A DNA stretch of 64,000 bases from a virus (taxonomy: Duplodnaviria > Caudoviricetes): the IMG/VR virus record IMGVR_UViG_3300032138_000680, positions 30,675 to 94,674 of that record. One strand, 5' to 3'. Positions 1 through 38,245 of the stretch are shown here, in pieces. Each line of letters opens with the position of its first letter. The first letter of the stretch is position 1. The notes under the pieces are model-generated. The model was not told where the DNA came from. It searched no databases and saw nothing but the letters and a program-made list of their open reading frames with translations. The position numbers and the translations under genes were made by a program.

Positions 1-935
1 TTTCCATAATCTTTAGAATAATCACAAAAATGTGAATTCAATGTCCAAAATCCAAATTTTTCAAGTAATTTTATTTTAGAAGGATGAGTCGCTAAAATAA
101 TTGGTACACCACTTATTAGTGCTCTAAAAGTTTTTTCAGTAAAAACTACATTTTCTCTATCCTCTAAACTAGCGGTTTCTGGAACAAATACTGTATGTCC
201 AGTTTGAAAATCCCAATACCATCCCATATTCACAGTATCCATCATTGTTCTATTACAAGTAATAAAATCTTTTGATTTATTTTTAGGTTGAATTTTGCTA
301 TTTGGAAATTTTTTATTAATTTTATTTATTAACTCCTCTCTCCATTTTCGTTTATTACCATCACCATCACTACCACTAAATCCTTTAAAGTATGAAAAAC
401 AAAATGATTTATCTCCTTTATATTCTATATTAAAATCTGTAAAAGATGGGTTATGATAAAATCCAAAATAATAAAAATAACGAGTAAATTGTAATAAAGG
501 TTGTTGTAATATTTTATACTTACCAGCCTTTAAAGATTTAAGTTTAGTTGATAAAACAATCGACTTTATCCTATCTAAATCAAAATTAGATTTTAACATA
601 TCAATATTAACTATCTCACCAAAATTTAAATAAATATGAACATCTACTTTATCTGGTACTCCTATCGTATCTAATCCTAAACGTGGTAATATTAATTTTA
701 TCTTATCATATTTTTCATCAGAACAAATATTGGCCACATTAGATTCTATATTACCATCTGTAAAAGTAATAATATCCCAATCTGGTAATCCCCTCTTTTT
801 AAACTTTATTATCCTTCCTTCTTGGCCGGGTCTATCTTCGCCTATCAGTTCAAATGGATAAAATAAAGAAAACAATATTGACATATCCAACTTTATTAAC
901 TCGTTATCAAAGGATGGTATAATAATAGCATTCAT
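1..935 (-). CDS. Partial (runs off window) glycosyltransferase-like protein with TEKT motif; absent from ORF track
   Basis: Manual translation from ATG at 935 (TAATG overlap with upstream stop): MNAIIIPSFDNE...VFVPET...VVFTEKTFRALISGVPIILATHPSKIKLLEKFGFWTL, open to window edge; ET..TEKT..P..L..GF motif resembles GT10-like phage proteins. Confidence 0.7.
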   Translation of the reverse strand, partial: MNAIIIPSFDNELIKLDMSILFSLFYPFELIGEDRPGQEGRIIKFKKRGLPDWDIITFTDGNIESNVANICSDEKYDKIKLILPRLGLDTIGVPDKVDVHIYLNFGEIVNIDMLKSNFDLDRIKSIVLSTKLKSLKAGKYKILQQPLLQFTRYFYYFGFYHNPSFTDFNIEYKGDKSFCFSYFKGFSGSDGDGNKRKWREELINKINKKFPNSKIQPKNKSKDFITCNRTMMDTVNMGWYWDFQTGHTVFVPETASLEDRENVVFTEKTFRALISGVPIILATHPSKIKLLEKFGFWTLNSHFCDYSKDYG

Positions 936-1687
936 TAGAACAAATCTCCCCATTCAGGTTTATATATATTCACATTATTACTATTTCCACTCTCATCTCT
1001 AAATTTATAAGGTGTTCTCGTTTTAAAATCTACATATGTAATTACTTTTTTTTCTTTCCAAAAGGCTTTGTTATGACTTTCTGGTTCTCTAAAATATTCT
1101 ATAAAATCACTATCACTGAAAGGTTTACGAAATATTCCAACAAAATCAATATCACCGTGATACCATCCCGCGTCCTGATCACTTACACCATCTAATCCAT
1201 TACAACATCCTATCCATAACCAAGCAGTACTATAATCTACGAGTTTTCCCTCGTACCTTATTTCTTCAACATATGGTCTATCCCAACCGGGTAAACCAAG
1301 CATAATAGTTATTTGTTTTCTATCATGACTGTGGTGAAAAACTACATCATAAGTTTTTCTTTCTGCTTCCTTAGACCACAAATAAACCTCTGATGGTATT
1401 TTATCGACTGCAATATATGTCATTTCAGGACCAACAGTACCATCTTCTTTTTCTACCCAAACTATACCTTTTATAAATCCATATCCCCTTTCATGAGAAA
1501 CTTGAATTCCAGCATGTTGACCATTCTTTATAACAACACCAGAGTCATAACTTTCAGTAATTTTAACCCAATCTGGATTAAATCTACACGCTATAGTTAT
1601 ATCTTTCTCCATCATATTCCAAATAGGAGACTTACTTAAATTAAATTTGTGTTTTGATGGTACAAATAATGGATCTGCTATTTTCAT
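935..1687 (-). CDS. Stand-alone LamG/concanavalin-A-like domain protein
   Basis: WLWIGCCN...WYHGDIDFVGIF...FRDESGNSNN resembles the LamG inserts of the neighbouring GT7 genes. Confidence 0.65.
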   Translation of the reverse strand: MKIADPLFVPSKHKFNLSKSPIWNMMEKDITIACRFNPDWVKITESYDSGVVIKNGQHAGIQVSHERGYGFIKGIVWVEKEDGTVGPEMTYIAVDKIPSEVYLWSKEAERKTYDVVFHHSHDRKQITIMLGLPGWDRPYVEEIRYEGKLVDYSTAWLWIGCCNGLDGVSDQDAGWYHGDIDFVGIFRKPFSDSDFIEYFREPESHNKAFWKEKKVITYVDFKTRTPYKFRDESGNSNNVNIYKPEWGDLF

Positions 1688-3132
1688 AATTTAATCTCCA
1701 AACATTTTCTATAAAAACTTTCATATTCTGGAAAAACTTCTACAAAATTTGTTCCTCGCCTTTTATCGTGTTCTTGAAAAAACCTACCAAAATCACTTCT
1801 GTTTATATTAAATGATTCCTTATCCCTATCAACAGAAATCATCCAGTCATAAATTCTTTTTATTTTTTGAACTTCAATATCAGAATACCCGATGTACATA
1901 CTTTCAAATATCGGCAAAGCAAGAAAATCCAATTGTTGAGCCTGTTTAAAAATCTCATCAGACCATATTTTAGGTAAAACTTGAACAGTTTGATGCTGTG
2001 GATATCTTAAATAACTTGTATCTAAAAAAGTTGCAGAATTCCAATATCTATCTGAAGAACCATATTGTTCTTTTAATTTATAGATACCATCAATTAATTT
2101 ACCATAATTAGGAACTGATAAGGCATTGTAAGTACTCATATAAGTTAAATTCACCCTCTTCAATACTTCTAATACCCTATGACAATTATCCCAAAAATAA
2201 TTAAAGTCTAATCCATGTCTAATATATTCTGCCTGTTTCCCCCAAGTATCCACAGATGTAAAAATAATAATTTCCTTAACTTTATCCTCTTGTTCAAGTA
2301 CTTTCATTTTTTCTAAAAACTTATCTATTATTTCTTTGGGTACACCTAAGTTTGAATTTATAGCTAAACTTAAATTTTTATTTGGATTTGGATGTTCTAT
2401 AATATAATCTAATACTTTAAAGGTATCTTTTGTTAATAATGGTTCTCCACCTGTTATTCTAAATGTATGTAAATCTTCATACAAATCTGGCCACCATTTC
2501 CAAAATGCTTCTACATATGGATTGTATTCTCTATGTGGAATTGGCATTTTATCTTCATTTGTTAAACCAGCAAGATTATTAAATCCTCCACCACCATCAG
2601 TTGTTGTTGGATAACCACCATGTTTATCTATTTCTTCCATCCAGGTAGATGAAAAAGCAGGCCCACAATAACTACATTTAAAATTACAGGCATTTGAAAA
2701 CGCAACCTCTACATATCTTGGATTAAAATCATCTCTCCAACTGGAATTTTTTATCTCATCATAATGTGGTAATGACCAAGATTCACCTGATTTAAATGTT
2801 CTATCCGAATATCTATCGGAATTGTCCTCTACGTTCCAACAATATGTACATTCATCTGGTCGTTTGTTATCTACCAACATTTCTTTTCTTCTCATTTTCT
2901 TATATCGAGTATTATGTAATGCAGAAGGATTTCTTTTTATTTCAGTTAAAGAAACTTTATGTGTTTTTGGATGATGGCAAGAATGGGTATGTCCATTCTG
3001 TAAATGAACTGTGACTTGTGTCCATTTTGCTAAACACATTCCACACCCAATCTCATCTAATTTACTCTTAGTACTTACAAGGTATGGCGATTCTTTTTCA
3101 ATGTATTTTCTTGCTTTTTGTGGATCGGCCAT
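1684..3132 (-). CDS. Radical SAM protein with N-terminal twitch-like Cys cluster
   Basis: CNFKCSYC (CxxxCxxC), TGGEPLL, N-terminal CLAKW..HSCHHP..ECTYCW. Confidence 0.9.
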   Translation of the reverse strand: MADPQKARKYIEKESPYLVSTKSKLDEIGCGMCLAKWTQVTVHLQNGHTHSCHHPKTHKVSLTEIKRNPSALHNTRYKKMRRKEMLVDNKRPDECTYCWNVEDNSDRYSDRTFKSGESWSLPHYDEIKNSSWRDDFNPRYVEVAFSNACNFKCSYCGPAFSSTWMEEIDKHGGYPTTTDGGGGFNNLAGLTNEDKMPIPHREYNPYVEAFWKWWPDLYEDLHTFRITGGEPLLTKDTFKVLDYIIEHPNPNKNLSLAINSNLGVPKEIIDKFLEKMKVLEQEDKVKEIIIFTSVDTWGKQAEYIRHGLDFNYFWDNCHRVLEVLKRVNLTYMSTYNALSVPNYGKLIDGIYKLKEQYGSSDRYWNSATFLDTSYLRYPQHQTVQVLPKIWSDEIFKQAQQLDFLALPIFESMYIGYSDIEVQKIKRIYDWMISVDRDKESFNINRSDFGRFFQEHDKRRGTNFVEVFPEYESFYRKCLEIKL

Positions 3133-3330
3133 TTATTTTTCTTCTTCTACTGGAGGTGTATCATCTACATATTTTTTATAAAATTCTGCAAGATAATATT
3201 GTACTCTATTACTCCATTCATCTTTATCTACTTCTTCAAACCAAATAGTTAAAGAATCAAGTATTGTAACTATTTTTTCAAGAGCTACTACTTTTCGTTC
3301 TTCTAATATTCTTTGATCTTTTTCGCTCAC
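3133..3330 (-). CDS. Small hypothetical helical protein
   Basis: 65-aa ORF fills gap in operon, AGGAG RBS upstream. Confidence 0.7.
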   Translation of the reverse strand: MSEKDQRILEERKVVALEKIVTILDSLTIWFEEVDKDEWSNRVQYYLAEFYKKYVDDTPPVEEEK

Positions 3331-3345: not shown

Positions 3346-4845
3346 TTAAAATTCAACATGACTTGGGATATCTTGTCCACAACGAAAATCTATTATTTCG
3401 TGATCCGTTCCAAATAGTTTTTCTCGTTTCACTACACTATAATTTAAATTTGTAAGTCCATCATCATCTGTATTTATTATACCACCTTGAACATCTTCTA
3501 CAAATCGTTTTTCGTTTACACTTGTATCCTTCTGGTGAACAAACTTACCACCTACGATATCATTTCGTGGATGTAATAGAGAAGTAAATTTACCAGGTCG
3601 ACTTCTATACGGTAAAATAGTATTTGGTATTTTATCAACAGATTCTATTCCTACTGAACATCCATTTAATACTCCATGATTTCCATTTCCACTCAAATCA
3701 TAAACTATATTCTTTTTTACTTTAGAAAAGTCATAATAAAGTGAAGAACCAGTGGGGATTGGATAATCAGTTTTATAGTAGTTCTTCACTTCATCTTTAC
3801 TTAATACCTTATCTAAAAGATAAACCTGTGCAACATCACCGGCAAAGAAATTAGATTCTTCTTTGTTAGGATCACCAACACCAATATAAAATGGATTTCC
3901 ACCATATCTCTTTAATGGCGGCTGAAACTTTAATGGCGATTCTGAACCGTGTCCGAATCTTGAATCTGATTCCCTACCATTTAAATAAAATCTCATTTCA
4001 TTCTTATCAACATTTATTGTAACCATCAAATGTGTCCAAACATCAGGATGTCTTTTTATCCACATATAAGAATGATTGTTCTTTCGGTTAAACAATCCAA
4101 ATGAATATGCATCTGAATTATCCCAGCCTAATCCCATTTGGAAACTTGGTCGTCCAAAAATATATTGATGAATAAATTTTCTATTTTCAACATCACCAAT
4201 TAAATATTTTGGAATATCAAATCTATCTTCTGCCCGAACCAATAACGCCATTGTAAAATTACCACTTGTAATTTCTCGTATAGAATCATTTGGACTTATT
4301 TTTACATAATCACTTAAACCATTAAATCTTAAAAAACTTCGTGGTTTATTTGATTCGTGAATCATAGATGTTTCATCTGCTAATCCCTTTTTCTTAGTTC
4401 TGTAAAATAAATCATCATCTTCCATTCCCCAATTAAAATAACCATTAGAATAACCATTTATTTTTTCGTAGTGTTCTTTAGTAAATAGAATAGCCCCACC
4501 AAAATATTCTTGATATTTCAATCCATATTCGAATTGTTGTACCATAACTGCTAAATGTTCTACTTTATCTGGATAAGAATAATCACAAGTAACATCTTCA
4601 GGAACCATATCTATATCGTGAAAACAGAAATAGTCATAACCCTCTTTTTGTGCAATATCAAATGCTACATTTTTAGCTGTTCCTCTATTGAATCCACTTA
4701 CACTATCTGGATAAACTTGATTGGCAACAAATATCTTATATTCTATATCCTTATCCTTAAAAAATTTATCCATATGTGGAACAAACTTTTTAAGATGTTC
4801 TTCCCTTTTATAATGTGGAACACATATTGCTAATTTTTTATTCAT
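3346..4845 (-). CDS. GT7 (beta-1,4-galactosyltransferase-like) glycosyltransferase with inserted LamG domain
   Basis: FNRG..NV, FHDID, YFGGA, NGYSN.YFNWGMEDDDL; LamG FNG..WTHL..YLNG..FAGDV..DLSGNGNHG; GT7 tail DGLTNLNY. Confidence 0.88.
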   Translation of the reverse strand: MNKKLAICVPHYKREEHLKKFVPHMDKFFKDKDIEYKIFVANQVYPDSVSGFNRGTAKNVAFDIAQKEGYDYFCFHDIDMVPEDVTCDYSYPDKVEHLAVMVQQFEYGLKYQEYFGGAILFTKEHYEKINGYSNGYFNWGMEDDDLFYRTKKKGLADETSMIHESNKPRSFLRFNGLSDYVKISPNDSIREITSGNFTMALLVRAEDRFDIPKYLIGDVENRKFIHQYIFGRPSFQMGLGWDNSDAYSFGLFNRKNNHSYMWIKRHPDVWTHLMVTINVDKNEMRFYLNGRESDSRFGHGSESPLKFQPPLKRYGGNPFYIGVGDPNKEESNFFAGDVAQVYLLDKVLSKDEVKNYYKTDYPIPTGSSLYYDFSKVKKNIVYDLSGNGNHGVLNGCSVGIESVDKIPNTILPYRSRPGKFTSLLHPRNDIVGGKFVHQKDTSVNEKRFVEDVQGGIINTDDDGLTNLNYSVVKREKLFGTDHEIIDFRCGQDIPSHVEF

Positions 4846-6320
4846 GTTACTGATATAAACTCGTGTTTATTTAAAAATTGTTCTTGATGTAAAATCTCAT
4901 ATTTAAGAGAACTTAAACCATCTTCTTTAATGTCTGTTAATCCTTGTCTAACCTTATTAAAAAACCGTAATTGGTTTTCTCGTGTTTCCCAATGAGTAAA
5001 CTTAGTCTGTCCCCACCCATTTTCTTCATGTTCTAAACAAGTGTATTTTCCATCTCGTCTGTTTGGTATTGTTGCGATACTACCAATTCTCAACTCTTTT
5101 TCTTTTTGAATTGCCCTGTATATTTTTGCATGATTATCATTTCCACTTTTATCAATAACCATGTTATCTACAATATTATCAAAATTCCAATAACCAACTA
5201 CATTTTTTGCCGATTTATAAATTTCTTGTCCAGACTTCCACCCGTCAAATTGTTTACTGGCCGTCACATTTCGGGGATACCCATTATTATATAAATATAA
5301 TGCCTCTTCGGGATCTAAACAATTAGACCAAAGAGTTACCTGTGCCACAGTTCCTTTAAAATAACCCTCATCACCGCTTCTCGCATTTGGATTTGCACAT
5401 CCAATGTAATATGGAACATTGGTTGACTCTCTAATCTTCCCTAAAAAATCTGTTGGTGATTCGTTTGTTTCTACTCCATTTACAAACATCCTCAGTCGTT
5501 TTAAAATGTGGTCTACTGTATAAACAATATGAACCCATTCATCAGTTCGTCTGTCTGAAACTACCATAGATTGTTCATTGTCTGTATTCCAAATACCACC
5601 TTTATATTGCATCCCACTTGTATAGGCAATCCCTACATGATGTCCTGGTCGAGTAAAGACATGAAACTCATCGTATTCTTTATTTTCGTCAAGAACTATA
5701 TCATCAGATGGTTCTACCCAAGCCTCAACTGAAAATGATGAATTTACCACTCTATTTAATAAAAGTGTATTCTTTATTTCAAGATAATCTCTACCATTAA
5801 ATTCCATAGTACTTATGTATCGTGGTACTTTATCTTTCGATGAACCAGTCCATTGTTCTTGTAATGGAACTCCTCGTTTTTTACAACGATAAAGTAAATC
5901 ATCATCCTCAAATCCCCATCCCCAATACTTGTTAGAATATCCATTTATCCACTCAAAATGTTCTTTGTTGAATAATGTAACTCCACTAAAGTATTCAGGA
6001 TAGACTAAACGATAATTGAATTTACTTAATCTTGCTGCAAGATGTGTTGGTTTATCTACCCAAGAATAATCACACGTTTTATCTTCAGGTAACATATCCA
6101 CATCGTGGAAACAAAAATAATCAAATCCTTGTTGTGATGATACATCGTATCCTACATTTATTAACCATCCACGATTAAAGGGCCTATCGTTCCCTTGTTC
6201 CACTACAAAGATTTTGAAATCTATCTCTTTATCAGATAGAAATTTCTCCATATGTGGAACAAATTTAGCGAGATGTTCTTCTCTATCCCGATACGGAACT
6301 ATTATCGCCAATTTAGTCAT
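4842..6320 (-). CDS. GT7 glycosyltransferase with inserted LamG domain
   Basis: IIVPYRDR, FNRGWLINVG, FHDVDMLP, NGYSNKYWGWGFEDDDL; LamG FSVEAWV..FVNG..YWNFD..DKSGNDNHA; tail DGLSSLKY. Confidence 0.9.
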   Translation of the reverse strand: MTKLAIIVPYRDREEHLAKFVPHMEKFLSDKEIDFKIFVVEQGNDRPFNRGWLINVGYDVSSQQGFDYFCFHDVDMLPEDKTCDYSWVDKPTHLAARLSKFNYRLVYPEYFSGVTLFNKEHFEWINGYSNKYWGWGFEDDDLLYRCKKRGVPLQEQWTGSSKDKVPRYISTMEFNGRDYLEIKNTLLLNRVVNSSFSVEAWVEPSDDIVLDENKEYDEFHVFTRPGHHVGIAYTSGMQYKGGIWNTDNEQSMVVSDRRTDEWVHIVYTVDHILKRLRMFVNGVETNESPTDFLGKIRESTNVPYYIGCANPNARSGDEGYFKGTVAQVTLWSNCLDPEEALYLYNNGYPRNVTASKQFDGWKSGQEIYKSAKNVVGYWNFDNIVDNMVIDKSGNDNHAKIYRAIQKEKELRIGSIATIPNRRDGKYTCLEHEENGWGQTKFTHWETRENQLRFFNKVRQGLTDIKEDGLSSLKYEILHQEQFLNKHEFISVT

Positions 6321-6712
6321 TATTTACCGAATAATTTACCGACCACCGACTTCTTTTCTTTAGGTTCTTCGCCCAAAGTCTTTGCAATTTCACTTGCAAT
6401 GTCTGCTGCAGATGCTTGTGGTTGTGCAACTGGTGGGGCTGATACTCCTTCTGGATTACTCTCTACATAGTTCTTAACTATATTATAGATTTCCCATAGT
6501 TTCCAATCAATTGCCTCAACCTTTTCTTCTATGTTAGTCAATGACTTAACTGCTATTGCAGTAAGTTCACTACCTTCATTAGAATCAAGGGCGTCTTTTG
6601 CGTCTGCCTTTTCCTCTTTTTCTGGGTTGTTCCAAGGTTGATCCTCTGCTTTAGTTCCAGTTTCTTTAGTTTCAACTGGTTTTGTTTCAGTTTCTTTTTT
6701 AGTTGCCATCAC
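6320..6712 (-). CDS. Hypothetical low-complexity protein with central helix (IDWKLWE)
   Basis: 130-aa ORF in operon, GGAG RBS. Confidence 0.7.
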   Translation of the reverse strand: MMATKKETETKPVETKETGTKAEDQPWNNPEKEEKADAKDALDSNEGSELTAIAVKSLTNIEEKVEAIDWKLWEIYNIVKNYVESNPEGVSAPPVAQPQASAADIASEIAKTLGEEPKEKKSVVGKLFGK

Positions 6713-6720
6713 TTTTCTCC

Positions 6721-10540: not shown

Positions 10541-10541
10541 A

Positions 10542-11243: not shown

Positions 11244-11301
11244 ATAAAACCTATAATTATCCTTAAATAAATAGTTAAAAAAACTTTCAAATCATATTTT
11301 A

Positions 11302-12795: not shown

Positions 12796-12810
12796 AAAAG
12801 TTCTCCAAAA

Positions 12811-12849: not shown

Positions 12850-12865
12850 CCCGTTGTAATTTACT

Positions 12866-16291: not shown

Positions 16292-16320
16292 ATGGTCCCA
16301 ATACTTTTAAAGGATTTTTT

Positions 16321-25045: not shown

Positions 25046-25046
25046 A

Positions 25047-27259: not shown

Positions 27260-27261
27260 TT

Positions 27262-31000: not shown

Positions 31001-34000
31001 ACCACCTATTTGTAATATATCTTGAGTCAAATTAAATATAGATCCAGTTAATGCATTTAAATGTGGTGAACGTATTACTCCACCTTTAATTATAGAATCA
31101 GATGATCCTGAAATTATTTTTGTTGTAATAGTCCAACCACTTGCACCACCTATGTAACCTGTATTTGCGGTTACGGCTCCTGCCATTGTAACATTTCCTG
31201 ATGTATCAATAGTAAGATTATCAGTATTTAATTCTAATCCAGTCGCGTTAAATCTTAAATAGTTACCAGTTCCATCACTAAAATTAAATTTACCAGTTCC
31301 ATCCATATATGTACCAAGTGTAGTTGCTGTTGAACTTATTGGTCCACCATTAGCCCCCATTCTAATAGTTCCACCAGCTACAGAACTACTAATAACCATT
31401 GTTGGTGTTCCTAATCCAAATACTTCTGATTGAATATCAATGGTATTGGAGTACATTTTTATATAGTTACTTGCATCACCTCTAACTAAAAAGTCCCCAG
31501 TACCATCTACATAAAAACCTGTGTTAGTTCCAGTGACACCTGTATTTGGTGTAGCACCAAGTGATATCTTACCACTATTTACTCCACTATCCACTACCAT
31601 TGTTGATGTGGCTAAATCAAAGGTATCTGCTTTTATATCTAATTTATTCTGTGATTTTCTAATATAGTTAGTGGCGTTTGTATATGCAAGAAAATCACCA
31701 GTACCATCCATATAGACACCTTTAGCTGTACCACTACCAGTTGTATTTGGTGATGCTCCAAGTGATAGTTTACCACTATTGGTTGCAGAATCTATTACAA
31801 CTGTAGTTGCATCTAAATCAAAAGTATCTGACTTAATTGTAAAAGAACCAGCATCTACTCTAAAATAATTTGTAGCATTTCCATAAACATTTAATGCACC
31901 ACCGCCATCCATATAGATACCAACTGTATCTGCAGTTGGAGAACTTGGACCACCACTTCCACCTAATCTTATAACACCAGCACCACTATCTGCTGCACTA
32001 TCCATAATAATAGATGTAGCATCTAAATCAAAAGTAGTTGCTTTTATAGAAAAAGAACCACCATCTTGTCTAATATAATTGTCTGAATCAGATTGTAAAT
32101 TAAACTCGCCACTTCCACTTAAAAATATTCCATTACTACTCAAATTAGATAAAGATGAAGATGCCCCACCCAATGCTAATTGACCACCATCGTCTGTTGA
32201 TAAATCAAACTTATTTGTATCAATATTTAAATCATTAGTTCTAATTTCTAATCCACTATTAGTAAATTTAATATAATCTTTATTGGCCTCATTCTTACCT
32301 TTAATTAATACATCACCACTTCCACTTGCATAAATACCTTTATTAATCGTATTGGGATCAAGACTTGTTAATGAACCAACTGACATTATTCCACCATCCC
32401 CAGCATTTAATAGTATTTTACCATTTGCCAAAGACATTGAAGTTTGAGTAGAAGATATTTTTAAATCACCGCTACCTGCATTTAATTCAAATTTTTCAAG
32501 TTTAACTCGTAAATCATTTCCAAGATTACCACCACTTCCCGATAAATGAAGATAATTTGTACCATCACCCACTCTCCATTCCGCATCTGTATACCAATAA
32601 TTGTTATTATTTATACGAATCCCATCATGAGTTCCATAAATATTTCTACCTATCGAAATTTTAGCTCCTGTTTCTATTCCTCCCTGTAAAGTTGCTACGT
32701 GAAGTACACCATGAATAGATCCTGTCATTGCTTGTATAGTTCCTCGGAAGAAACCGTTATCAGTATAAAGACCAAATCCTGGTTCTTCATTTCCATACAA
32801 AAATGCACTACTTAATCCACTTAAATCACCCAATCGAGTTCTTAACTGAAAATCATAAACACCACTACCAGTTCTCTCAACAATATCCATATATGGTGTA
32901 GAAATATCATTTGGATTAGCATTCATTAAAATATAACCACTTGATATATCTTCACTCGGTGAATATACTCCAGTAGATACTATTACCTGACCTTCTTCAT
33001 AAGGCTGGGCAGTAGAAACTAATCCAGCTATAAATTCTTTATCTGTATCTATAACATGAACATTTACACCATTACTGTGTGCTGCGGCTGTAGTATCATG
33101 AAAATCTCTTACTACAATTAAACCACCACCAGTAGAATGAGATACAACTTTCATTCTTTCATCATCAATCTTTAATATAGATTGTGTCGTGTAACCAGTA
33201 CCAGTACTTAAAGTTATTGCAGTTACAGAATCATTAATACCACCACCAGCTAAAGTCCCAACAACTGATCCCGTAGTTGGTGATTCACCATAACCACGAC
33301 CAAGATATAATTCACCGGCAAGTCCATCAGGATCAATTGCAGAACCAGTAATATATGCATATGCCGAATCAGAAGAATATCTTTTAGAACCAGTAACATA
33401 CATATACTCAACAGTAAATCCTGTATCACTAACTCGTTTTGCCTTTAATATTTCACCAGCCCTAAATCCACTAACATTTGCACAACTCATTGTTACATCT
33501 GCTGCAGACATCGAAGGAATTCCAACTACTATACTACTACCACTTCTTAATGGCTGTAATGTAGTTGAGTTGGCTACCATCAATTGTCCACCAACAACAT
33601 TAACAGATTCTTTTTCAAAAACTGTAGTAGCTAATGTACCTCTGATTCTTGCATTTTCAAATTCTGCTGTACCATTTCCTAATGTATCAATTCTCCAACC
33701 CTTTAAGTTTGATGCAAATCCTGCAGACTCCATTCTTCCACTTGAATGTAATATTAAACCTTCTTCTCCCTCAGCAAATTGACCACCAAAACCGGAATCT
33801 GGAATAGTTCTAATTTGAGTTCCTGTAATTTCCCATCCACCAACTTTATTTCCTTGTTCTCCGAACATTGCAATAACACCAGGAAATCCATCATCACTAT
33901 AATTGGCAGTACCATCATATATTTTAAGACCATACTGATCACCAGCATCTTGACTTATCTCACCAAGTCTTACTATCTCAGCTGCACCACTTGCTGGTGA

Positions 34001-37000
34001 CTTAAATACTCTAACATTTTTATTTGTAGAACTAATATCAAGTGTATTAGTATCCAAATCAAATACTGGAGTTTTAATGGCGACACCACTACTATCAGCT
34101 CTAATATAATTGTTATCTCCAGTACCAACTGTAAAATCAATTTTAGCAACTGTATTGTCCGTTCCCATAATAAAACCGGCAGTAGTAGTTTGACCAAAAT
34201 CTGTTTTACCACCAAATGCGATATAATTATCATTATTCCCACCTTGAATTGTAACAACTTTATTTGAACCGCTTCCTACTCTGATATTAGAACTATTACC
34301 ATCAAGAATAATATTGCCCTCACCTAATGACATTGAAGCGTGTGTCGAAGATAATTCTATATTACTTGCATCTAATTCAAATTCTCGTGTTTCTATCTCT
34401 AAATCATCACCATCAAATTTTATATGACTTCTACTACCTACGGCTGTAAATAGTGGTGTCGAACCACCCGCAACTGCAAGTAATATTCCTGTTGCACCAT
34501 AAGCAACTGTTGTTTGACCAACACTAATATATGGACTATTACTATTACCCCTCATAATAATTTCTTGACCAGTTCCCAAAGACATGGAAGCATGTGTCGT
34601 AGATATTTCAACTGAAGGTGTATCTAATTCAAATAAAGTTGTCTTAATTGATACACCATTACTTGTATCGTATTTTATAAAGTTTTGAGAACCATCACCA
34701 GCGTAAAATCTTGGATTTCCGCTATTATAACCCATTTGTATACCTTCACTCGCGAAAGTATGAGTGTTTATGGATATTTCTGCATTATCTCCATTTGCAT
34801 TAAGTCTAATTCCAGCATCACCAGAACTTGCTATATTCGTTGAATTAATAGTCCATCCAGCAATTTTACCACCAGTAAATAATACTTGTGAACCTGTTAT
34901 ATCACCATCGGTAGTTAATGTAAAATTATCTGTTTTTATTGAAACACCAGTTCCAGCAACATATTTGAAATAATCATTTGCACCTTCACCAGCAAAGAAT
35001 GTTAATACATCACTACCATCATAACCTAATTGTATTCCAGATCCATTTCCTATAGTATGAGTACCTATTGTTATTTTTGGATTGGTTGAAGTAAATCTTA
35101 AAGTATTACCAGGAGATGCTATTCTTGTAGGAGTTAAATCCCATCCTGATATTGATTGAGTAGATTCACCAATATACATAACATTAGAATAATCACTATT
35201 TGAATTCTTTTGTATTACTTGTAAACCATAATCATTATTTGCATGTAGATCAGTAGTATCACTTAATCCACCAACTCTAACTATCTTTACCTCTCCATCT
35301 TCTACATCTTCATCCTTTCTATATACGGTTAAACCTTGTCCAATATTCTTATCATTATCATTGGTAGATGATAAATAAACTCTCGTATAATCTTGATATG
35401 CAACTGAACCACTTAGGGCTTTCGAAATATAGTCATCATTAATTGTCCAACCTGCAATTGTACCGCCAGTAAATAATACATCTGAACCTGTTATATTACC
35501 ACCTGCAGAAACTTTAAATCTACTTGATGATATAAATGATGCTGGATCTGATGTATCTGCGGAAGCAGATATTCTCCAATATGGTGAATATGCCAATGAG
35601 GCAGTTTCTATTTGTGCTCCACCTATCATACCTGCAGATGCAGTAATAGTACCGACAAATTTTGCACCACTTGCAAATAATATACCTTGATGATCTACTG
35701 AAAAATTAGGACCAAAATGAACATAATAACCAGCAGAATCGGTACTTCCACTTGGACTAAAATCTATATAATATTCATCTGCTAATGGTTCAAATCCAGT
35801 TGGATAAGATCCATCACTTCTTGGACCTTTATCTGACATATACAATGAAGAACCTTGGGCGTCAAGAGTAATATTAGAACCACTTAATAGAGAACGACCA
35901 TCATCACCTGTGTATAATTTCCAACCTGCCACTTCCATAGAACTATTTTTAGTATCTAAATGAAATCCAGAAGATGATATTTCTATATTTGCACCTGCCC
36001 CACTTATAAATTGTTGATTTGGATTACCAACAAAAAATGCATCCGCTCGAATATCAAGTTCACTTGGAACAGTTCTATATCTCATATAACTTGTAGAGCT
36101 ACCAAACAATTCTAATCCAACTCCGTTATATTCATCTGTTCTATCAGTTAAAACAGAACCACTCCACATCATAAATCCAGGTCCCCCAGTTCCTGCTGAT
36201 GCACTTGCAAATCCTGAATATCCTATTGAACGAATAAATCCAGAACCTACACCTGCCATTTCAATACCACTACCAATGGCATTTCCAATAAACATAGAAC
36301 CACTAAGTAAATTATCAGTACCAGCTATGTATTGATTTGCACCTTGAAATGAAGATGCACTTACATGGGCTATAGTTCCAGCCACATTATTATTTACATC
36401 ATAGAATTCTGCTAAAAATTCATAATCGTCAGGTCGTTCTTGTGAAAGTGGCGGAACTGGTGCAACAACTCTAATCCAATCAGGAGAAAATCCCGTGTCG
36501 GAAACTGGTCGTATAGAAATATCTGAAATATACCAACTACCTGCTGGTACTCCAAACTGTAAAAATCCGTTTCCATCTCTTAGTGGTTGAAATACTTCCT
36601 CGACTATTCCAAAATCCATTAAATTTCCACTCGAATCGTTTACTAAGTATCCTGGACTATTATCTCCTGGTGGAGCAAGTTGATATCCAAAGTTGGAATC
36701 AGTTTTTGCCAGGTAAGTTTGATAACTATCATTTCTTTCAAATGCTGAACCACTAAAAAATATTCCAAGTTCTGCGGTATTTTTAGTTGACCCTCCAGTT
36801 ACAATCTGAGGTCCATTTCTTCCAATTATTTTTGCTCTAAATGAATACTCAATATCTTTATAAAAATCTATCGGCCTTGAACCAGTAGTTTGAAATCTTA
36901 ATATAGAATTTTCTGAAGTATTAGAACCAGATATGTATACTGAATCAAGAATATGAGTAGAATTTTTAGTTGCTGTAGTATTACTACTTTTTTCCCAATA

Positions 37001-38245
37001 GTCATCTATAACGTTTTGATCAACAAAATATCCTAATCTCTGTGAACCAGCTGAACCAAATGTATCAAATAATAATTCTGGACTTTCTATTGGTGTATCA
37101 GCTATAAGTTCAAAATCACCAAAAGCATCTTTGTTTTTTGAATATAACTTTACTCTGTGTATATCCCCTGAAAAGGTTCTTAACTTAGATATTCTAACAT
37201 CTGCAAATGAACGATAATTAACTGTACTTACTGAATGAGTAGGTGCAGGTTGAAATGACATTGTATATGCAGTTTCCGCAAGTGGAACAATTACTTCCTG
37301 TCTTGGATCATCATCATCAAATCGTGTATCTTTTATAAAAAATTCTTTAGTGGGAATTAAAGTTGAATCATTTTTAACATCTTTAATGGTAGTTTCAAAT
37401 GTTTCAGGAAATTCATGGTATGATTCTGTCACAAATGTTGATTTTGGCTTTGGATTATTTACTGTAAAAGTTGCTCCAACGTGTTTCACTTCTGCATCAG
37501 AACCTTCCATATTTATAGTAAATCTTTCTACTTCTGGAGAAGCTTTTCTTACTACTCCGCCTCTGGTACTAACTCCTGCATTTTTACCACCACCACCATA
37601 TACTTTAGATTTATATCCTTTTTGTGTAACTGCAATTTCTTTATCGGGTGCTGGATCTTTATGTTCTGGTTGAGTACCTTCTGTTCCTGGTAACGGATCT
37701 CCTGATACTGTTCCTGTACTTTGAGTTATAGAAGCAGAAGGATAGGTAGTTTCAACAAAACCCTTTACAATTTCTCCAACCCACATTGATGGTTGTTTAT
37801 AAAAGAAAATTGGTTGTGTATTTACACCTGCTCCACTTATATATATTTTAGAATACCAACGAACATTATAAACATCCAACCATTCTGTAGGAACTTGTAC
37901 TTCATTCGGGTCTAATTCACCGAGACAATATAAAGTGGCATCTCCAAATGTATCTGGATCATCATATACTTCAATAGAAACTCTATGAGAAGTTCCTTCA
38001 AGATAATTTGGAACTGGTTCTGTATAAATTACTTTACCAGACGCATCATTAATTATTTCAAATTTTAACTCTACATTAGCCTTTAATAAATTAGAACCAC
38101 CTGCTAAAAAAGAACTGCGACCTTGAGTAATAACATCTGGAACTTCAACAATATTAAAATATTGTGAAATTGGCGCATCATCTTCAATAAAGACATCTAA
38201 ATCCTTTAATCCTTGATATCTGTTATAACGTCTTAATATTGACAT
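28034..38245 (-). CDS. Giant tail fibre protein with collagen-like GT(S/A) tract and C-terminal intramolecular chaperone (peptidase S74)
   Basis: 3403 aa Gly/Ser/Thr rich, IAGW/IGGW beta repeats, SSDERLKNNI...GLIAQDVQ..P..V...coiled coil. Confidence 0.88.
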   Translation of the reverse strand: MSILRRYNRYQGLKDLDVFIEDDAPISQYFNIVEVPDVITQGRSSFLAGGSNLLKANVELKFEIINDASGKVIYTEPVPNYLEGTSHRVSIEVYDDPDTFGDATLYCLGELDPNEVQVPTEWLDVYNVRWYSKIYISGAGVNTQPIFFYKQPSMWVGEIVKGFVETTYPSASITQSTGTVSGDPLPGTEGTQPEHKDPAPDKEIAVTQKGYKSKVYGGGGKNAGVSTRGGVVRKASPEVERFTINMEGSDAEVKHVGATFTVNNPKPKSTFVTESYHEFPETFETTIKDVKNDSTLIPTKEFFIKDTRFDDDDPRQEVIVPLAETAYTMSFQPAPTHSVSTVNYRSFADVRISKLRTFSGDIHRVKLYSKNKDAFGDFELIADTPIESPELLFDTFGSAGSQRLGYFVDQNVIDDYWEKSSNTTATKNSTHILDSVYISGSNTSENSILRFQTTGSRPIDFYKDIEYSFRAKIIGRNGPQIVTGGSTKNTAELGIFFSGSAFERNDSYQTYLAKTDSNFGYQLAPPGDNSPGYLVNDSSGNLMDFGIVEEVFQPLRDGNGFLQFGVPAGSWYISDISIRPVSDTGFSPDWIRVVAPVPPLSQERPDDYEFLAEFYDVNNNVAGTIAHVSASSFQGANQYIAGTDNLLSGSMFIGNAIGSGIEMAGVGSGFIRSIGYSGFASASAGTGGPGFMMWSGSVLTDRTDEYNGVGLELFGSSTSYMRYRTVPSELDIRADAFFVGNPNQQFISGAGANIEISSSGFHLDTKNSSMEVAGWKLYTGDDGRSLLSGSNITLDAQGSSLYMSDKGPRSDGSYPTGFEPLADEYYIDFSPSGSTDSAGYYVHFGPNFSVDHQGILFASGAKFVGTITASAGMIGGAQIETASLAYSPYWRISASADTSDPASFISSSRFKVSAGGNITGSDVLFTGGTIAGWTINDDYISKALSGSVAYQDYTRVYLSSTNDNDKNIGQGLTVYRKDEDVEDGEVKIVRVGGLSDTTDLHANNDYGLQVIQKNSNSDYSNVMYIGESTQSISGWDLTPTRIASPGNTLRFTSTNPKITIGTHTIGNGSGIQLGYDGSDVLTFFAGEGANDYFKYVAGTGVSIKTDNFTLTTDGDITGSQVLFTGGKIAGWTINSTNIASSGDAGIRLNANGDNAEISINTHTFASEGIQMGYNSGNPRFYAGDGSQNFIKYDTSNGVSIKTTLFELDTPSVEISTTHASMSLGTGQEIIMRGNSNSPYISVGQTTVAYGATGILLAVAGGSTPLFTAVGSRSHIKFDGDDLEIETREFELDASNIELSSTHASMSLGEGNIILDGNSSNIRVGSGSNKVVTIQGGNNDNYIAFGGKTDFGQTTTAGFIMGTDNTVAKIDFTVGTGDNNYIRADSSGVAIKTPVFDLDTNTLDISSTNKNVRVFKSPASGAAEIVRLGEISQDAGDQYGLKIYDGTANYSDDGFPGVIAMFGEQGNKVGGWEITGTQIRTIPDSGFGGQFAEGEEGLILHSSGRMESAGFASNLKGWRIDTLGNGTAEFENARIRGTLATTVFEKESVNVVGGQLMVANSTTLQPLRSGSSIVVGIPSMSAADVTMSCANVSGFRAGEILKAKRVSDTGFTVEYMYVTGSKRYSSDSAYAYITGSAIDPDGLAGELYLGRGYGESPTTGSVVGTLAGGGINDSVTAITLSTGTGYTTQSILKIDDERMKVVSHSTGGGLIVVRDFHDTTAAAHSNGVNVHVIDTDKEFIAGLVSTAQPYEEGQVIVSTGVYSPSEDISSGYILMNANPNDISTPYMDIVERTGSGVYDFQLRTRLGDLSGLSSAFLYGNEEPGFGLYTDNGFFRGTIQAMTGSIHGVLHVATLQGGIETGAKISIGRNIYGTHDGIRINNNNYWYTDAEWRVGDGTNYLHLSGSGGNLGNDLRVKLEKFELNAGSGDLKISSTQTSMSLANGKILLNAGDGGIMSVGSLTSLDPNTINKGIYASGSGDVLIKGKNEANKDYIKFTNSGLEIRTNDLNIDTNKFDLSTDDGGQLALGGASSSLSNLSSNGIFLSGSGEFNLQSDSDNYIRQDGGSFSIKATTFDLDATSIIMDSAADSGAGVIRLGGSGGPSSPTADTVGIYMDGGGALNVYGNATNYFRVDAGSFTIKSDTFDLDATTVVIDSATNSGKLSLGASPNTTGSGTAKGVYMDGTGDFLAYTNATNYIRKSQNKLDIKADTFDLATSTMVVDSGVNSGKISLGATPNTGVTGTNTGFYVDGTGDFLVRGDASNYIKMYSNTIDIQSEVFGLGTPTMVISSSVAGGTIRMGANGGPISSTATTLGTYMDGTGKFNFSDGTGNYLRFNATGLELNTDNLTIDTSGNVTMAGAVTANTGYIGGASGWTITTKIISGSSDSIIKGGVIRSPHLNALTGSIFNLTQDILQIGGSGSSMITNNDYGAGTTNLPNIYGSGSFLAGDGRWKVGSNSSYIAFDPTYGTKGRVIIVGGLRQTSTGAPQLDLTPTGSWDEKPVGFTFEENFLITRYGSSWRVKTENDKDDDPDNGPPNTGSGNSTWELYAAAGTSGTSGTSGTAGTSGTSGTAGTSGTSGTAGTSGTAGTSGTAGTSGTSGTAGTSGTAGTSGTSGTAGTSGTSGTAGTSGTAGTSGTAGTSGTSGTAGTSGTSGTAGTSGTSGTAGTSGTAGTSGTAGTSGTSGTAGTSGTAGTSGTAGTSGTSGTAGTSGTAGTSGTSGTAGTSGTSGTAGTSGTAGTSGTAGTSGTSGTAGTSGTSGTAGTSGTAGTSGTAGTSGTSGTAGTSGTSGTAGTSGTSGTAGTSGTSGTAGTSGTSGATGASGPGIVYRGVFADDSTYDNTTFYYIDGVRRDAIKVSSTYYLLTTLTGASGAAGSTLGSPPSGWEEFGTQFDSVATDLLLANEATVGQILTIGTDDGGNTGTLRSANASNASSGTGFFLAADGSGWIGDRTDDDYIGITSGGSITLGGWNVQGDRLYGSGASARIHAGGTPGIQVNAGAPEIRFIETTNFPSGTGYEFLKLHDSGSFLTDSNISSQYTDNLDSDSVSFGVTTPGTLGTISPINNSATWTGNIVGYMRSSNTSAAPSTTAHGYDLGHDNASFLGNLTQHQLQLVGDKTIGNVNGGTLYFKFQAYYWDDRTDTYVPIGSEVYDTIDPGLCTGNEPFPVEDIIDLRRIFPGRYAYVKYTFYKFVASSSGNATNSTLQINLMNNATNTFTAYKNKTFLSSRGIQSVSSRYMNTMIGGATSIFHGSDIRIERTALNTGGVLTVEGEIAVGDVVPTTAYDIYAEGDIASDANVIAYASSDERLKNNILPLGSGLEIINKLEPVEFDWKPDAPGWGTKITHDFGLIAQDVQKIVPGLVGEMSEGWLGLRYEKIIPFLISAVKEQQEQIEELKQEVKEIKNGSSK
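29810..30601 (-). repeat. 9-bp coding tandem repeat: 88 Gly-Thr-(Ser/Ala) triplets
   Basis: 792 nt of degenerate GGN ACN AGT/TCN/GCN units in frame in the fibre gene. Confidence 0.95.

What the first reader, a model, noticed from the sequence alone, without database searches (positions are those of the whole stretch)
1..38245. Candidate phage-encoded virion protein glycosylation/modification system next to its putative substrate
Seen: about 27 kb directly downstream of the giant tail fibre encodes a dozen or more glycosyltransferase-like genes (GT7 x3, GT4-like, GT25, GT32, GT2-like, WavQ-like x2, TEKT-type, GT4/Aah fusion) plus amino-sugar enzymes, two methyltransferases, a sulfotransferase-like protein, a 2OG oxygenase and two radical SAMs. 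Established: several of these families act on proteins (Aah/TibC heptosylate Ser; B4GALT7 of GT7 extends Xyl-O-Ser; COLGALT of GT25 galactosylates collagen). Inference: the phage builds complex tailored O-glycans on its own Ser/Thr-rich fibre and baseplate proteins, comparable to giant-virus fibril glycosylation, rather than modifying DNA.
Basis: partly seen in the sequence, partly recalled or inferred. Interest (0 to 1): 0.88.

Follow-up and report, generated by a model that had tools for sequence, protein, structure and literature searches.

The report
Giant phage sugar island beside fibre
An uncultured jumbo phage carries at least 58 kb of sugar-making and sugar-attaching genes directly behind its 3,403-residue tail fibre, including a close relative of the bacterial enzyme that sugar-coats adhesin proteins, so it probably glycosylates its own fibre, although no sugar has been observed.

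Summary
The window is the right 64 kb of a 94.7-kb IMG/VR phage contig. The sugar island fills window 1-28050 and continues 30.6 kb further left to the contig end, about 62 genes, all co-directional with the fibre.

Verified in the window:
- three GT7+LamG enzymes, GT2-like, GT25 and GT32;
- a GT4-fold enzyme, shown by fold;
- a GT4+TibC-like fusion;
- FdtA, DegT, a 2OG oxygenase, two methyltransferases and two twitch radical SAMs.

Not verified: "WavQ-like x2" and "TEKT-type".

Evidence for protein glycosylation:
- The TibC-like domain matches TibC at E 5e-58 and keeps the catalytic Asp, but lacks the iron-finger cysteines.
- No island protein has more than one hydrophobic segment.
- In 13 of 13 related contigs with context, the GT7 module directly follows the orthologous fibre.
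- Among phage contigs chosen only for a TibC-like gene, 18 of 49 clusters carry a proline-free Gly-Ser/Thr tract nearby, against 0 of 31 control loci.

Only this phage's fibre has the roughly 90-triplet Gly-Thr-Ser/Ala tract. The (S/T)-G-S motif is real but does not track the enzymes. The GT25/2OG collagen analogy fails.

The scan has reported the TibC-like/fibre pairing on other DNA (147 notes). Virion glycosylation remains an inference (about 0.5).

The parts
28034..38245 (-). Tail fibre or spike, 3403 aa, the putative substrate. The N-terminal about 650 aa are shared with relatives' fibres. The C-terminus is a Peptidase_S74 intramolecular chaperone.
29793..30601 (-). Proline-free collagen-like tract of about 90 Gly-Thr-Ser/Ala triplets (fibre residues about 2549-2817). 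The DNA repeats match only about 70% while the peptide is near perfect.
27262..28050 (-). 262-aa protein with a GTA head-spike-fibre domain; probably structural.
   Evidence: NF048003 E 2.9e-9; phrog_22177
25739..27259 (-). 506-aa protein of unknown function, 21% Ser+Thr, rich in the (S/T)-(G/A/S)-S motif (12 observed against 2.8 expected).
25047..25739 (-). GT32-type glycosyltransferase (DXD sugar-binding region).
   Evidence: PF04488 E 2.1e-6
24197..25108 (-). GT25 glycosyltransferase.
   Evidence: PF01755 E 2.5e-22
21800..24133 (-). 777-aa fusion. The N-terminal half is GT4. The C-terminal half (residues about 395-777) is TibC-like. The catalytic Asp (about residue 489), Thr, Lys and Trp are kept. 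The four iron-finger Cys are replaced by W, S, N and D.
20812..21813 (-). 333-aa protein, paralogue of 18587-19537 (58% identity). The nearest clusters are mostly viral (87-92% of members). There is only a weak GT-B lead.
20433..20810 (-). DUF6165 protein; recurs next to TibC-like genes elsewhere.
19551..20432 (-). FkbM-type methyltransferase; a frequent partner or fusion of phage TibC-like genes.
18587..19537 (-). 316-aa paralogue of 20812-21813; function unverified.
17409..18617 (-). 402-aa protein of unknown function. Its N-terminal about 170 aa recur beside TibC-like genes in 11 of 80 loci.
16321..17412 (-). 363-aa sulfotransferase-like protein; weak support.
15872..16291 (-). FdtA-type 3,4-ketoisomerase, on the route to 3-amino-3,6-dideoxyhexose.
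   Evidence: PF05523 E 2.7e-44
15223..15885 (-). 2OG-Fe(II) oxygenase.
   Evidence: PF13640 E 3.8e-6
14285..15223 (-). Short DegT/PseC-like sugar aminotransferase, 312 aa.
13263..14288 (-). GT-B/GT4-fold glycosyltransferase, 341 aa. In most relatives with context it lies 0-4 kb downstream of the fibre as the first enzyme of the core module, and in several it directly abuts the fibre.
11302..12795 (-). 497-aa Ser/Thr-rich protein with a C-terminal Hint domain. The Hint part matches a PHROG annotated as virion structural protein.
10542..11243 (-). Methyltransf_24 methyltransferase; core module.
9065..10540 (-). Twitch-domain radical SAM (NF033640); core module.
8208..9068 (-). GT2_4-like glycosyltransferase (borderline score); core module.
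6721..8211 (-). GT7 + LamG enzyme, copy 3.
6320..6712 (-). 130-aa acidic helical protein conserved inside the module.
4842..6320 (-). GT7 + LamG enzyme, copy 2. Its GT7 part matches B4GALT1 at 8.5e-36.
3346..4845 (-). GT7 + LamG enzyme, copy 1.
3133..3330 (-). 65-aa helical protein. The family is present in 1-3 tandem copies inside the module in relatives.
1684..3132 (-). Twitch-domain radical SAM, paralogue of 9065-10540 (47% identity).
935..1687 (-). 250-aa free LamG-like protein (BLAST match to the LamG part of 6721-8211).
1..953 (-). 3' part of a 378-aa gene of unknown function. The island continues 30.6 kb beyond the window's left edge.
42605..44621 (-). Second GT4-like gene (32% identical to 13263-14288) and a GT25-like gene, next to the primase; outside the island.

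Best explanation
The island is a virus-encoded, cytoplasmic protein-glycosylation system whose main target is the phage's own fibre and perhaps neighbouring virion proteins.

Inferred sequence of events:
1. Late in infection, soluble phage enzymes convert host nucleotide-sugars into rare sugars: 3-amino-3,6-dideoxyhexose through FdtA and DegT, further deoxy- and amino-sugars, and a CMP-activated acid sugar.
2. Tailoring enzymes add C-methyl, O-methyl, carbamoyl and possibly sulfate groups.
3. The TibC-like domain of the 777-aa fusion starts O-glycans on serines, most plausibly in the roughly 90-triplet Gly-Thr-Ser/Ala tract.
4. The fused GT4 domain and the GT25, GT32, GT4-like and GT2-like enzymes extend the chains.
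5. The three GT7+LamG enzymes also extend chains. Their lectin-like LamG domains would hold them on the fibre or on the growing glycan.

Two layers appear to be combined. One is a lineage-wide core module (GT4-like, Hint protein, methyltransferase, GT2-like, GT7-LamG, radical SAMs) that always follows the fibre gene. The other is a more mobile TibC cassette (TibC-like gene, FkbM, DUF6165, 402-aa family) that tends to travel with Gly-Ser/Thr tracts.

Shown here: gene content, homologies, lack of membrane proteins, synteny and co-occurrence. Inferred: the acceptor, the order of steps, the sugars and the biological benefit.
For: - TibC homology: E 5e-58 over TibC residues 22-386, about 40% identity, including the beta-barrel that the TibC structure paper (PMC4358343) describes as an N-terminal domain separate from the GT-B catalytic core it compares with WaaC. 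Asp110, Thr226, Lys230 and Trp305 are conserved. No LPS heptosyltransferase structure matched at E below 0.01.
- None of the about 62 island ORFs has more than one hydrophobic segment, so there is no Wzx, Wzy, WaaL, initiating phosphoglycosyltransferase or ABC exporter.
- The fibre and the island form one co-directional, tightly packed array, with no excess of terminator-like sites.
- In all 13 related IMG/VR records with context, the GT7 module starts 0-4 kb after the orthologous fibre, although the fibres share only about 22-51% identity with this one.
- Even the distant huge phage LR756508 keeps the GT4-like gene, a Hint protein and a GT32 at its fibre locus.
- The cultured Microcystis phage Mel-JY01 has a 1226-aa GT4+TibC-like fusion about 5 kb from its fibre across the record ends.
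- At least 581 IMG/VR contigs encode TibC-like relatives. In 80 loci chosen only for that gene, 24 loci (18 of 49 clusters at 80% identity) have a (G-[STA]-[STA]) tract of 6 or more triplets within 10 kb, against 0 of 31 GT7-LamG loci (Fisher p 5e-5). 15 have an S74-type or otherwise fibre-like protein within four genes.
- The nearest clusters of the two families looked up in the protein atlas are mostly or wholly viral, which argues against recent capture of host LPS genes.
Against: - No glycan has been observed and the acceptor is inferred from neighbourhood only.
- The TibC-like domain lacks all four iron-finger cysteines, which TibC needs for its dodecamer and activity, and has Ala at the position of TibC Arg286.
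- Close relatives G003 and G006 have a shorter TibC-like gene but no Gly-Ser/Thr tract in the DNA held.
- The core module occurs with fibres that lack such tracts, so its acceptor site is unknown.
- The (S/T)GS motif does not track either enzyme set.
- GT25, GT32, GT9 and GT4 are also classic LPS-core families whose members work without membrane helices on lipid A-core.
- The control set for the co-occurrence test is one related lineage, not random phage DNA.
Confidence: 0.5

Rival explanations
1. Host envelope remodelling. The soluble glycosyltransferases extend the host's lipid A-core, or another lipid-linked glycan, at the inner face of the membrane. The host's own flippase exports it. The changed cell surface would block superinfection or stop progeny sticking to debris. 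This is the customary reading of large sugar-gene clusters in marine phages.
For: - GT25, GT32, GT9 and GT4 are LPS-core families.
- Cyanophage clusters of up to 13 glycosyltransferases plus epimerases, KdsA/B and RmlC are interpreted this way (PMC12801897).
- Core-type assembly needs no Wzx or Wzy, so the absence of membrane proteins does not exclude it.
Against: - The GT9 domain is TibC-type, not WaaC/WaaF-type.
- The constant position directly behind the fibre gene, and inside a stretch holding probable structural proteins, is not explained.
- No lipid-carrier initiating enzyme is present.
- Several families are mainly or only viral.
Confidence: 0.22
2. DNA hypermodification. Some or all of the transferases put sugars on modified bases of phage DNA to evade restriction.
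For: - Phage glycosyltransferases that decorate DNA are well known (references cited in PMC12619734; PMC13326640).
- The GT-B models also align with T4 alpha- and beta-glucosyltransferases.
- A GT4-like/GT25-like pair sits beside the primase.
Against: - No thymidylate-synthase-family hydroxymethylase is found in this contig or in a 216-kb module-bearing record rated complete.
- Pathways for many different rare sugars, lectin-fused GT7 enzymes and a TibC homologue are unlike known DNA systems.
- All GT-B folds resemble each other, so the T4 matches carry little weight.
- Only 31% of the genome is held.
Confidence: 0.06
3. Another soluble acceptor. The module makes a glycosylated small product or modifies the small conserved helical proteins encoded inside it, in a RiPP-like or natural-product-like pathway using the many radical SAM enzymes. 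Its linkage to the fibre would be incidental or regulatory.
For: - One to three tandem 65-88-aa ORFs with a conserved W..R.EWYL.EFY motif lie between the GT7 genes.
- Relatives carry up to five or six radical SAM paralogues.
- A B12 radical SAM C-methyltransferase, a carbamoyltransferase, aminotransferases and 2OG oxygenases are typical of aminoglycoside-type pathways.
Against: - The small proteins are charged and helical, with no Cys/Ser/Thr-rich core.
- No peptidase, exporter or immunity gene was seen.
- This reading does not explain the TibC homologue or the tract co-occurrence.
Confidence: 0.1

Closest known systems
TibC / AAH bacterial autotransporter heptosyltransferases (BAHT; PDB 4RAP, 4RB4; PMC4358343)
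   Same: Clear homology over almost the whole enzyme, including the N-terminal beta-barrel. The catalytic Asp and the Thr, Lys and Trp of the donor pocket are conserved. BAHTs are cytoplasmic enzymes that O-glycosylate many serines of a long repetitive surface fibre encoded nearby.
   Different: All four iron-finger cysteines are missing and TibC Arg286 is Ala. The domain is fused to a GT4 domain. There is no autotransporter: the neighbour is a phage fibre with a collagen-like tract rather than a beta-helix. The donor sugar is unknown.
Mycobacteriophage virion glycosylation (Freeman et al. 2023, Cell Host Microbe 31:1216; known here only through citations in PMC12619734 and PMC12801897)
   Same: Phage-encoded glycosyltransferases acting on the phage's own virion proteins.
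   Different: As cited, those glycans sit on the C-termini of capsid and tail-tube subunits. One such phage (Maravista) is reported to carry two putative glycosyltransferases (PMC11256854). Here there are at least 14 transferase genes, whole rare-sugar pathways, a fibre as likely target and a Gram-negative-type host. Nothing has been tested.
Fibril glycosylation of Megavirinae giant viruses (PMC10117803, PMC8456856, PMC9614988)
   Same: Virus-encoded clusters that make rare bacterial-type amino and deoxy sugars, with transferases to decorate surface fibrils independently of the host.
   Different: Those are eukaryotic viruses with experimentally determined glycans. The enzymes are different, with no TibC-like or GT7-LamG enzymes reported there.
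BclA collagen-like exosporium glycoprotein of Bacillus anthracis (PMC6222408, PMC10050317)
   Same: A trimeric collagen-like filament with a threonine in each repeat (from my own knowledge). It carries O-glycans built from deoxy, amino and methylated sugars made by a dedicated locus.
   Different: BclA repeats contain proline, by my recollection. It is a bacterial spore protein, and its transferases are unrelated to TibC as far as I know.
'Cell wall synthesis and modification' gene clusters of large cyanomyoviruses (S-SCSM2R, S-SCSM1, P-SSM2; PMC12801897)
   Same: Many glycosyltransferases (13 in S-SCSM2R, called possibly the highest number in a marine phage) together with epimerases, RmlC and cytidylyltransferases in one marine phage.
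   Different: Those are read as host-surface or DNA modification, and no link to a fibre gene is described. The present island has at least 14 verified or fold-supported transferase genes on one-third of a genome, and it is fixed behind the fibre.

Membership tests
BAHT (TibC/AAH) protein O-heptosyltransferases | Full-length sequence homology, including the N-terminal beta-barrel domain | tested here: met
   phmmer E 5e-58 / 1.4e-58; query 400-771 aligns to TibC 22-386. JGI names 'autotransporter strand-loop-strand O-heptosyltransferase' on many homologues.
BAHT (TibC/AAH) protein O-heptosyltransferases | Catalytic base Asp110 and donor-pocket Thr226, Lys230, Trp305 | tested here: met
   All four are aligned and conserved. 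Asp, Lys and Trp are invariant in 121 sequences.
BAHT (TibC/AAH) protein O-heptosyltransferases | Four-cysteine iron finger (Cys339, 342, 358, 370), needed for the dodecamer and for activity | tested here: not met
   W, S, N and D stand at these positions. The 32 nearest homologues also lack them, while 86 of 120 listed homologues and 67 of 78 viral loci keep CCCC.
BAHT (TibC/AAH) protein O-heptosyltransferases | Heptose-binding Arg286 and an ADP-heptose donor | tested here: not met
   Ala aligns with Arg286, although that column is Val in 83 of 121 sequences. The donor is not testable here.
BAHT (TibC/AAH) protein O-heptosyltransferases | Cognate autotransporter substrate encoded nearby | tested here: not met
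   No autotransporter is present. The neighbour is a phage fibre.
Virus-encoded autonomous virion glycosylation (giant viruses, chloroviruses, mycobacteriophages) | Viral genes for nucleotide-sugar synthesis and glycosyltransferases, clustered | tested here: met
Virus-encoded autonomous virion glycosylation (giant viruses, chloroviruses, mycobacteriophages) | Glycan demonstrated on a virion protein | not testable with these tools
   Needs mass spectrometry or glycan staining of virions.
O-antigen / capsule gene cluster (Wzx/Wzy- or ABC-dependent) | Initiating phosphoglycosyltransferase, flippase, polymerase or ABC exporter (polytopic membrane proteins) | tested here: not met
   No ORF of the island has more than one hydrophobic 19-residue segment. 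No such Pfam family was found.
LPS-core (LOS-type) extension enzymes | GT9, GT25, GT4 and GT32 enzymes acting on lipid A-core without a dedicated export gene | tested here: inconclusive
   The families are present, but the GT9 domain is TibC-type. The acceptor cannot be read from sequence.
Phage DNA glycosylation (T4-type) | Pyrimidine hydroxymethylase of the thymidylate-synthase family supplying the acceptor base | tested here: inconclusive
   PF00303 is absent from this contig (31% of the genome) and from the complete module-bearing record G021. It is present in G012.
Collagen hydroxylysine glycosylation (2OG lysyl hydroxylase + GT25 galactosyltransferase) | Lys (or Pro) in the Gly-X-Y repeats to be hydroxylated | tested here: not met
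   Residues 2601-2800 of the fibre contain no Pro, Lys, Asp or Glu.
GT7 (beta-1,4-galactosyltransferase family) | GT7 N- and C-region domains above the Pfam cut-offs, and homology to solved B4GALT enzymes | tested here: met
   PF13733 and PF02709 hits. B4GALT1 8.5e-36, B4GALT7 1.2e-33 over query residues 3-154. Whether the part after LamG completes the fold was not shown.

The most novel reading that the evidence does not exclude
This is the largest autonomous glycosylation system yet seen in a bacteriophage: at least 58 kb and at least 14 transferase genes. It would build complex, methylated, carbamoylated and perhaps sulfated O-glycans on a proline-free Gly-Thr-Ser/Ala collagen-like fibre. 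It would use a cysteine-less TibC-type initiating enzyme and lectin-fused eukaryote-type GT7 enzymes, giving the phage a glycan-coated fibre comparable to giant-virus fibrils. TibC-like fibre glycosylation would then be a widespread, undescribed trait of environmental phages.
Probability: 0.4. Interest if true: 0.85.

Novelty: new variant of a known kind. Interest (0 to 1): 0.7.

Why it matters
Large sugar-gene clusters in marine phages have been known for about twenty years, by my recollection, and are usually attributed to host-surface or DNA modification without any test.

- If these genes coat the phage's own fibre, phage adsorption, host range, particle stability and recognition by grazers or defences would depend on a glycan layer that sequence-based host-range prediction ignores.
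- It would extend giant-virus-style autonomous glycosylation to tailed phages of Gram-negative-type hosts.
- It would reveal a large, mostly viral branch of TibC-type protein glycosyltransferases (at least 581 IMG/VR contigs).
- It would reveal a new GT7+lectin enzyme class, abundant in ocean metagenomes and absent from all 50,697 deposited phage genomes.
- The question becomes testable, because the cultured Microcystis phage Mel-JY01 carries the GT4+TibC-like fusion next to its fibre.

Tried and rejected
- Megablast of 45 kb of the window against GenBank phages found no match.
- A portal-family search of the contig found nothing, and the control rang nowhere, so it is uninformative.
- Sigma-70 promoter and terminator scans were at or below chance. 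They give no operon boundaries, and the promoter model may not suit the host.
- A profile of the 341-aa family against PDB sequences, and Pfam, NCBIfam and PHROGs searches, found nothing. Only the fold identified it.
- (S/T)-G-S as a glycosylation sequon:
  - The motif is real: SGS 41 observed against 7.2 expected (z 12), with permuted tripeptides at expectation.
  - It is also enriched in Mel-JY01, which lacks the GT7 and GT4-like families.
  - It is enriched in fibres of records without a TibC-like gene.
  - It is absent from LR756508, which has the GT4-like gene.
  - It was therefore rejected as evidence for a substrate. A structural role is at least as likely.
- The GTS tract as the target of the core module was rejected: all 12 relatives' fibres lack a Gly-Ser/Thr-type tract (two have only short 8-9-triplet Gly-X-Y stretches).
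- GT25 plus 2OG oxygenase as a collagen hydroxylysine system was rejected: the tract has no Lys or Pro.
- A large ORF next to TibC-like genes as a sign of fibres: 32 of 80 loci, close to what the local density of large ORFs would give, so not used.
- The C-terminal 153 aa of a GT7-LamG enzyme against PDB sequences showed no B4GALT match. The claim that LamG is inserted inside the fold was not verified.
- A RiPP reading of the small ORFs was considered and left as a minor rival.

Full report
**Where the window lies.** The 64-kb window is bases 30675-94674 of a 94,674-base IMG/VR virus contig that CheckV rates 31% complete, which suggests a genome of roughly 300 kb.
- G+C is about 30% and there are no tRNAs. 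Every long ORF is on the minus strand.
- There is no nucleotide-level match in 50,697 GenBank phage records.
- By the gp6-like baseplate wedge protein, the nearest deposited relatives are Microcystis phage Mel-JY01 (44%), the 484-kb uncultured phage LR756508 (40%) and Flavobacterium phages (39%).
- Right of the fibre lie an SbcC-like nuclease, a primase and baseplate genes.

**The observation.** The coordinates are in the parts list.
- Eight genes with nine glycosyltransferase domains are verified between 1 and 28050: three GT7+LamG fusions, GT2_4 (borderline), GT25, GT32, the GT4+TibC-like fusion, and the 341-aa gene.
- The 341-aa gene has no family hit. It folds with pLDDT 91 into a GT-B/GT4 structure (Foldseek E 2.7e-10).
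- Also confirmed: FdtA, a short DegT, a 2OG oxygenase, Methyltransf_24, FkbM and two radical SAMs. Both radical SAMs belong to the twitch-domain subfamily NF033640.
- The sulfotransferase call is weak.
- The 'WavQ-like' pair and the 'TEKT-type' enzyme could not be verified. The 58%-identical pair 18587-19537 and 20812-21813 has nearest clusters that are mostly viral (87-92% of members), with only a weak GT-B lead.

**The island is twice as large as reported.** The 30.6 kb of contig left of the window carries, on the same strand:
- four SDR epimerase/dehydratases, an RmlC-like epimerase and an RfbH-like DegT;
- a KedN5-type B12 radical SAM C-methyltransferase and a PseF-like cytidylyltransferase;
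- split TPP-enzyme subunits, a ThiG-like protein and class I/II aminotransferases;
- a second 2OG oxygenase, a second Methyltransf_24/CmcI-like methyltransferase and a radical SAM/SPASM protein;
- a carbamoyltransferase, cut by the contig end;
- four paralogues of a family with a fucosyltransferase-like motif. They give a moderate model (pLDDT 71) in which the top 27 structural matches, and 29 of the top 30, are GT-B glycosyltransferases (Z 8.4-11.8).

With the GT4-like/GT25-like pair at 42605-44621, the contig holds at least 14 verified or fold-supported transferase genes. A recent paper 'possibly the highest number in a marine phage genome' (PMC12801897).

**The fibre.** The 3403-aa protein has a C-terminal Peptidase_S74 chaperone domain, typical of fibres and spikes, and an N-terminal region shared with relatives' fibres.
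- Residues about 2549-2817 are roughly 90 Gly-Thr-Ser/Ala triplets with no Pro, Lys, Asp or Glu.
- The DNA repeats match only about 70%, so the peptide is conserved against synonymous drift. It is not an assembly artefact.

**Evidence bearing on the acceptor.**
1. The C-terminal half of the 777-aa protein is a close homologue of TibC (E 5e-58, about 40% identity, TibC residues 22-386). TibC heptosylates serines of the TibA and AIDA-I adhesins in the cytoplasm.
   - The beta-barrel domain, the catalytic Asp110 and Thr226, Lys230 and Trp305 are kept.
   - No LPS heptosyltransferase structure matched.
   - The four iron-finger cysteines are replaced by W, S, N and D, and Arg286 is Ala.
   - The 32 nearest of 1,257 homologues form a cysteine-less group. 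86 of the 120 listed keep the finger.
2. A hydropathy scan finds no island protein with more than one hydrophobic segment. There is therefore no flippase, polymerase, ligase, initiating transferase or exporter.
3. Synteny.
   - A search with one GT7+LamG protein found 31 IMG/VR loci.
   - The recurring order is fibre, GT4-like, Hint protein, methyltransferase, GT2-like, GT7-LamG, one to three small helical ORFs, two more GT7-LamG genes, then one to six radical SAMs.
   - In all 13 records where the upstream DNA is available, the orthologous fibre (1,232-4,342 aa, sharing only about 22-51% identity with this one) ends 0-4 kb before the module.
   - In this phage about 14 kb of extra genes (14285-28050) is inserted between the two.
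   - LR756508 keeps a Hint protein, the GT4-like gene (37%) and a GT32 at its fibre locus.
   - In Mel-JY01, the 1226-aa protein annotated 'methyltransferase FkbM' is in fact GT4 + TibC_1st + GT9. It is 43% identical to the domain here and lies about 5 kb from the fibre across the record ends.
4. Co-occurrence.
   - At least 581 IMG/VR contigs encode TibC-like relatives.
   - In the 80 loci kept, which were selected only for that gene, 24 loci (18 of 49 clusters at 80% identity) have a (G-[STA]-[STA]) tract of six or more triplets within 10 kb. None of the 31 GT7-LamG loci does (Fisher p 5e-5).
   - The association holds for enzymes with the iron finger (18 of 67) and without it (4 of 11).
   - Fifteen loci have an S74-type or otherwise fibre-like protein within four genes.
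   - Frequent partners are the 402-aa family, FkbM and DUF6165. These same genes surround the TibC-like gene here.

**What did not hold.**
- The long tract is unique to this phage among the 12 module-bearing fibres examined. It is missing from the held DNA of G003 and G006, which have a shorter TibC-like gene.
- The (S/T)-G-S tripeptide is strikingly over-represented in the fibre and five other probable virion proteins: SGS 41 against 7.2 expected, TGS 20 against 5.7, with permuted tripeptides at expectation and often hydrophobic neighbours. It is enriched in all 12 relatives' fibres.
- The motif is just as enriched in Mel-JY01, which lacks the GT7 and GT4-like families. It is not enriched in LR756508, and it does not follow the TibC-like gene. 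It may be structural.
- The collagen hydroxylysine analogy fails for lack of Lys and Pro.
- The GT7 domain is no closer to B4GALT7 than to B4GALT1.

**Interpretation.** The best-supported reading (about 0.5) is cytoplasmic O-glycosylation of the phage's own fibre, in two layers:
- a lineage-wide core module, fixed behind the fibre gene, whose acceptor site is unknown;
- a more mobile TibC cassette whose likely acceptor is the Gly-Thr-Ser/Ala tract.

The rivals are host LPS-core remodelling (about 0.22), another soluble acceptor or small product (about 0.1) and DNA glycosylation (about 0.06).
- LPS-core remodelling is not excluded by the lack of membrane proteins, because core enzymes are soluble.
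- For DNA glycosylation, no thymidylate-synthase-family gene is present in this contig or in a complete module-bearing record.

**Known parallels.** These are TibC/AAH (PMC4358343), mycobacteriophage virion glycosylation (Freeman 2023, seen only through citations), giant-virus fibril glycosylation (PMC10117803, PMC8456856) and the BclA collagen-like glycoprotein (PMC6222408).
- No paper in the library links an autotransporter-type heptosyltransferase to phage fibres.
- The GT7+LamG family has 2,328 homologue clusters at E 1e-5 or better; of the 120 best listed, mostly metagenomic, none carries an informative name. It has no match in deposited phage genomes.

**Earlier notes of this scan.** 147 notes in at least 134 genomes report the TibC-like/fibre pairing on other DNA. 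That lead prompted the tract test, which I ran on my own loci.

Noticed in passing
window 3133-3330 and 6320-6712; relatives e.g. L014:9506-9987, L019:4195-4669: Two families of small, charged, helical proteins are conserved inside the GT7-LamG module. One is 65-88 aa with the motif W..R.EWYL.EFY and a C-terminal G-N/S-x-x-R-P, in 1-3 tandem copies. The other is 103-130 aa with EAIDWKLWE. Their function is unknown. They could be adaptors, regulators or substrates of the neighbouring radical SAM enzymes.
   Followed up: partly
window 28034-38245, 25739-27259, 49799-50872, 50892-51920, 52724-56704, 58883-60001: The tripeptide (S/T)-G-S, usually flanked by hydrophobic residues, is 4-6 times more frequent than composition predicts in six probable virion proteins. 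It is near absent from enzymes and from other Ser/Thr-rich structural proteins. It is shared with relatives' fibres and with Mel-JY01, but not with LR756508.
   Followed up: yes
window 11302-12795; relatives carry two such genes flanking the GT4-like gene (e.g. L028:3081-4163 and 5319-6380): Ser/Thr-rich proteins end in a Hint (hedgehog/intein-type) domain. The Hint part matches a PHROG annotated as virion structural protein. A C-terminal self-cleaving domain on a fibre-locus protein may act like the S74 chaperone, or may attach the N-terminal part to something.
   Followed up: partly
window 1684-3132 and 9065-10540; L012, L028, L030: The module's radical SAM enzymes belong to the uncharacterised twitch-domain subfamily NF033640. 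They multiply to five or six paralogues in some relatives, and some are fused to longer proteins (683-828 aa).
   Followed up: partly
window 42605-44621: A second GT4-like gene and a GT25-like gene sit between the primase and small genes, away from the island. This pair is the best candidate for a different acceptor such as DNA.
   Followed up: no
L047 (PP395634.1) 4750-8430: The Mel-JY01 protein deposited as 'methyltransferase FkbM' (1226 aa) contains GT4 and TibC-like glycosyltransferase domains. A 'cytidylyltransferase like protein' follows 3 kb later, so a cultured phage carries part of this system.
   Followed up: partly
L034 (LR756508.1) 8801-13026: The SbcC-like gene of LR756508 appears split into 243-aa and 861-aa parts by a 305-aa ORF with no match to this phage. 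This suggests an inserted mobile element or intron.
   Followed up: no
window 27262-28050: The 262-aa protein with a gene-transfer-agent head-spike-fibre domain ends in an acidic stretch followed by five glycines.
   Followed up: no
contig 21937-22106 (about 8.6 kb left of the window): This 169-base gap before the RmlC-like gene is the largest intergenic gap inside the island proper. I did not examine it.
   Followed up: no
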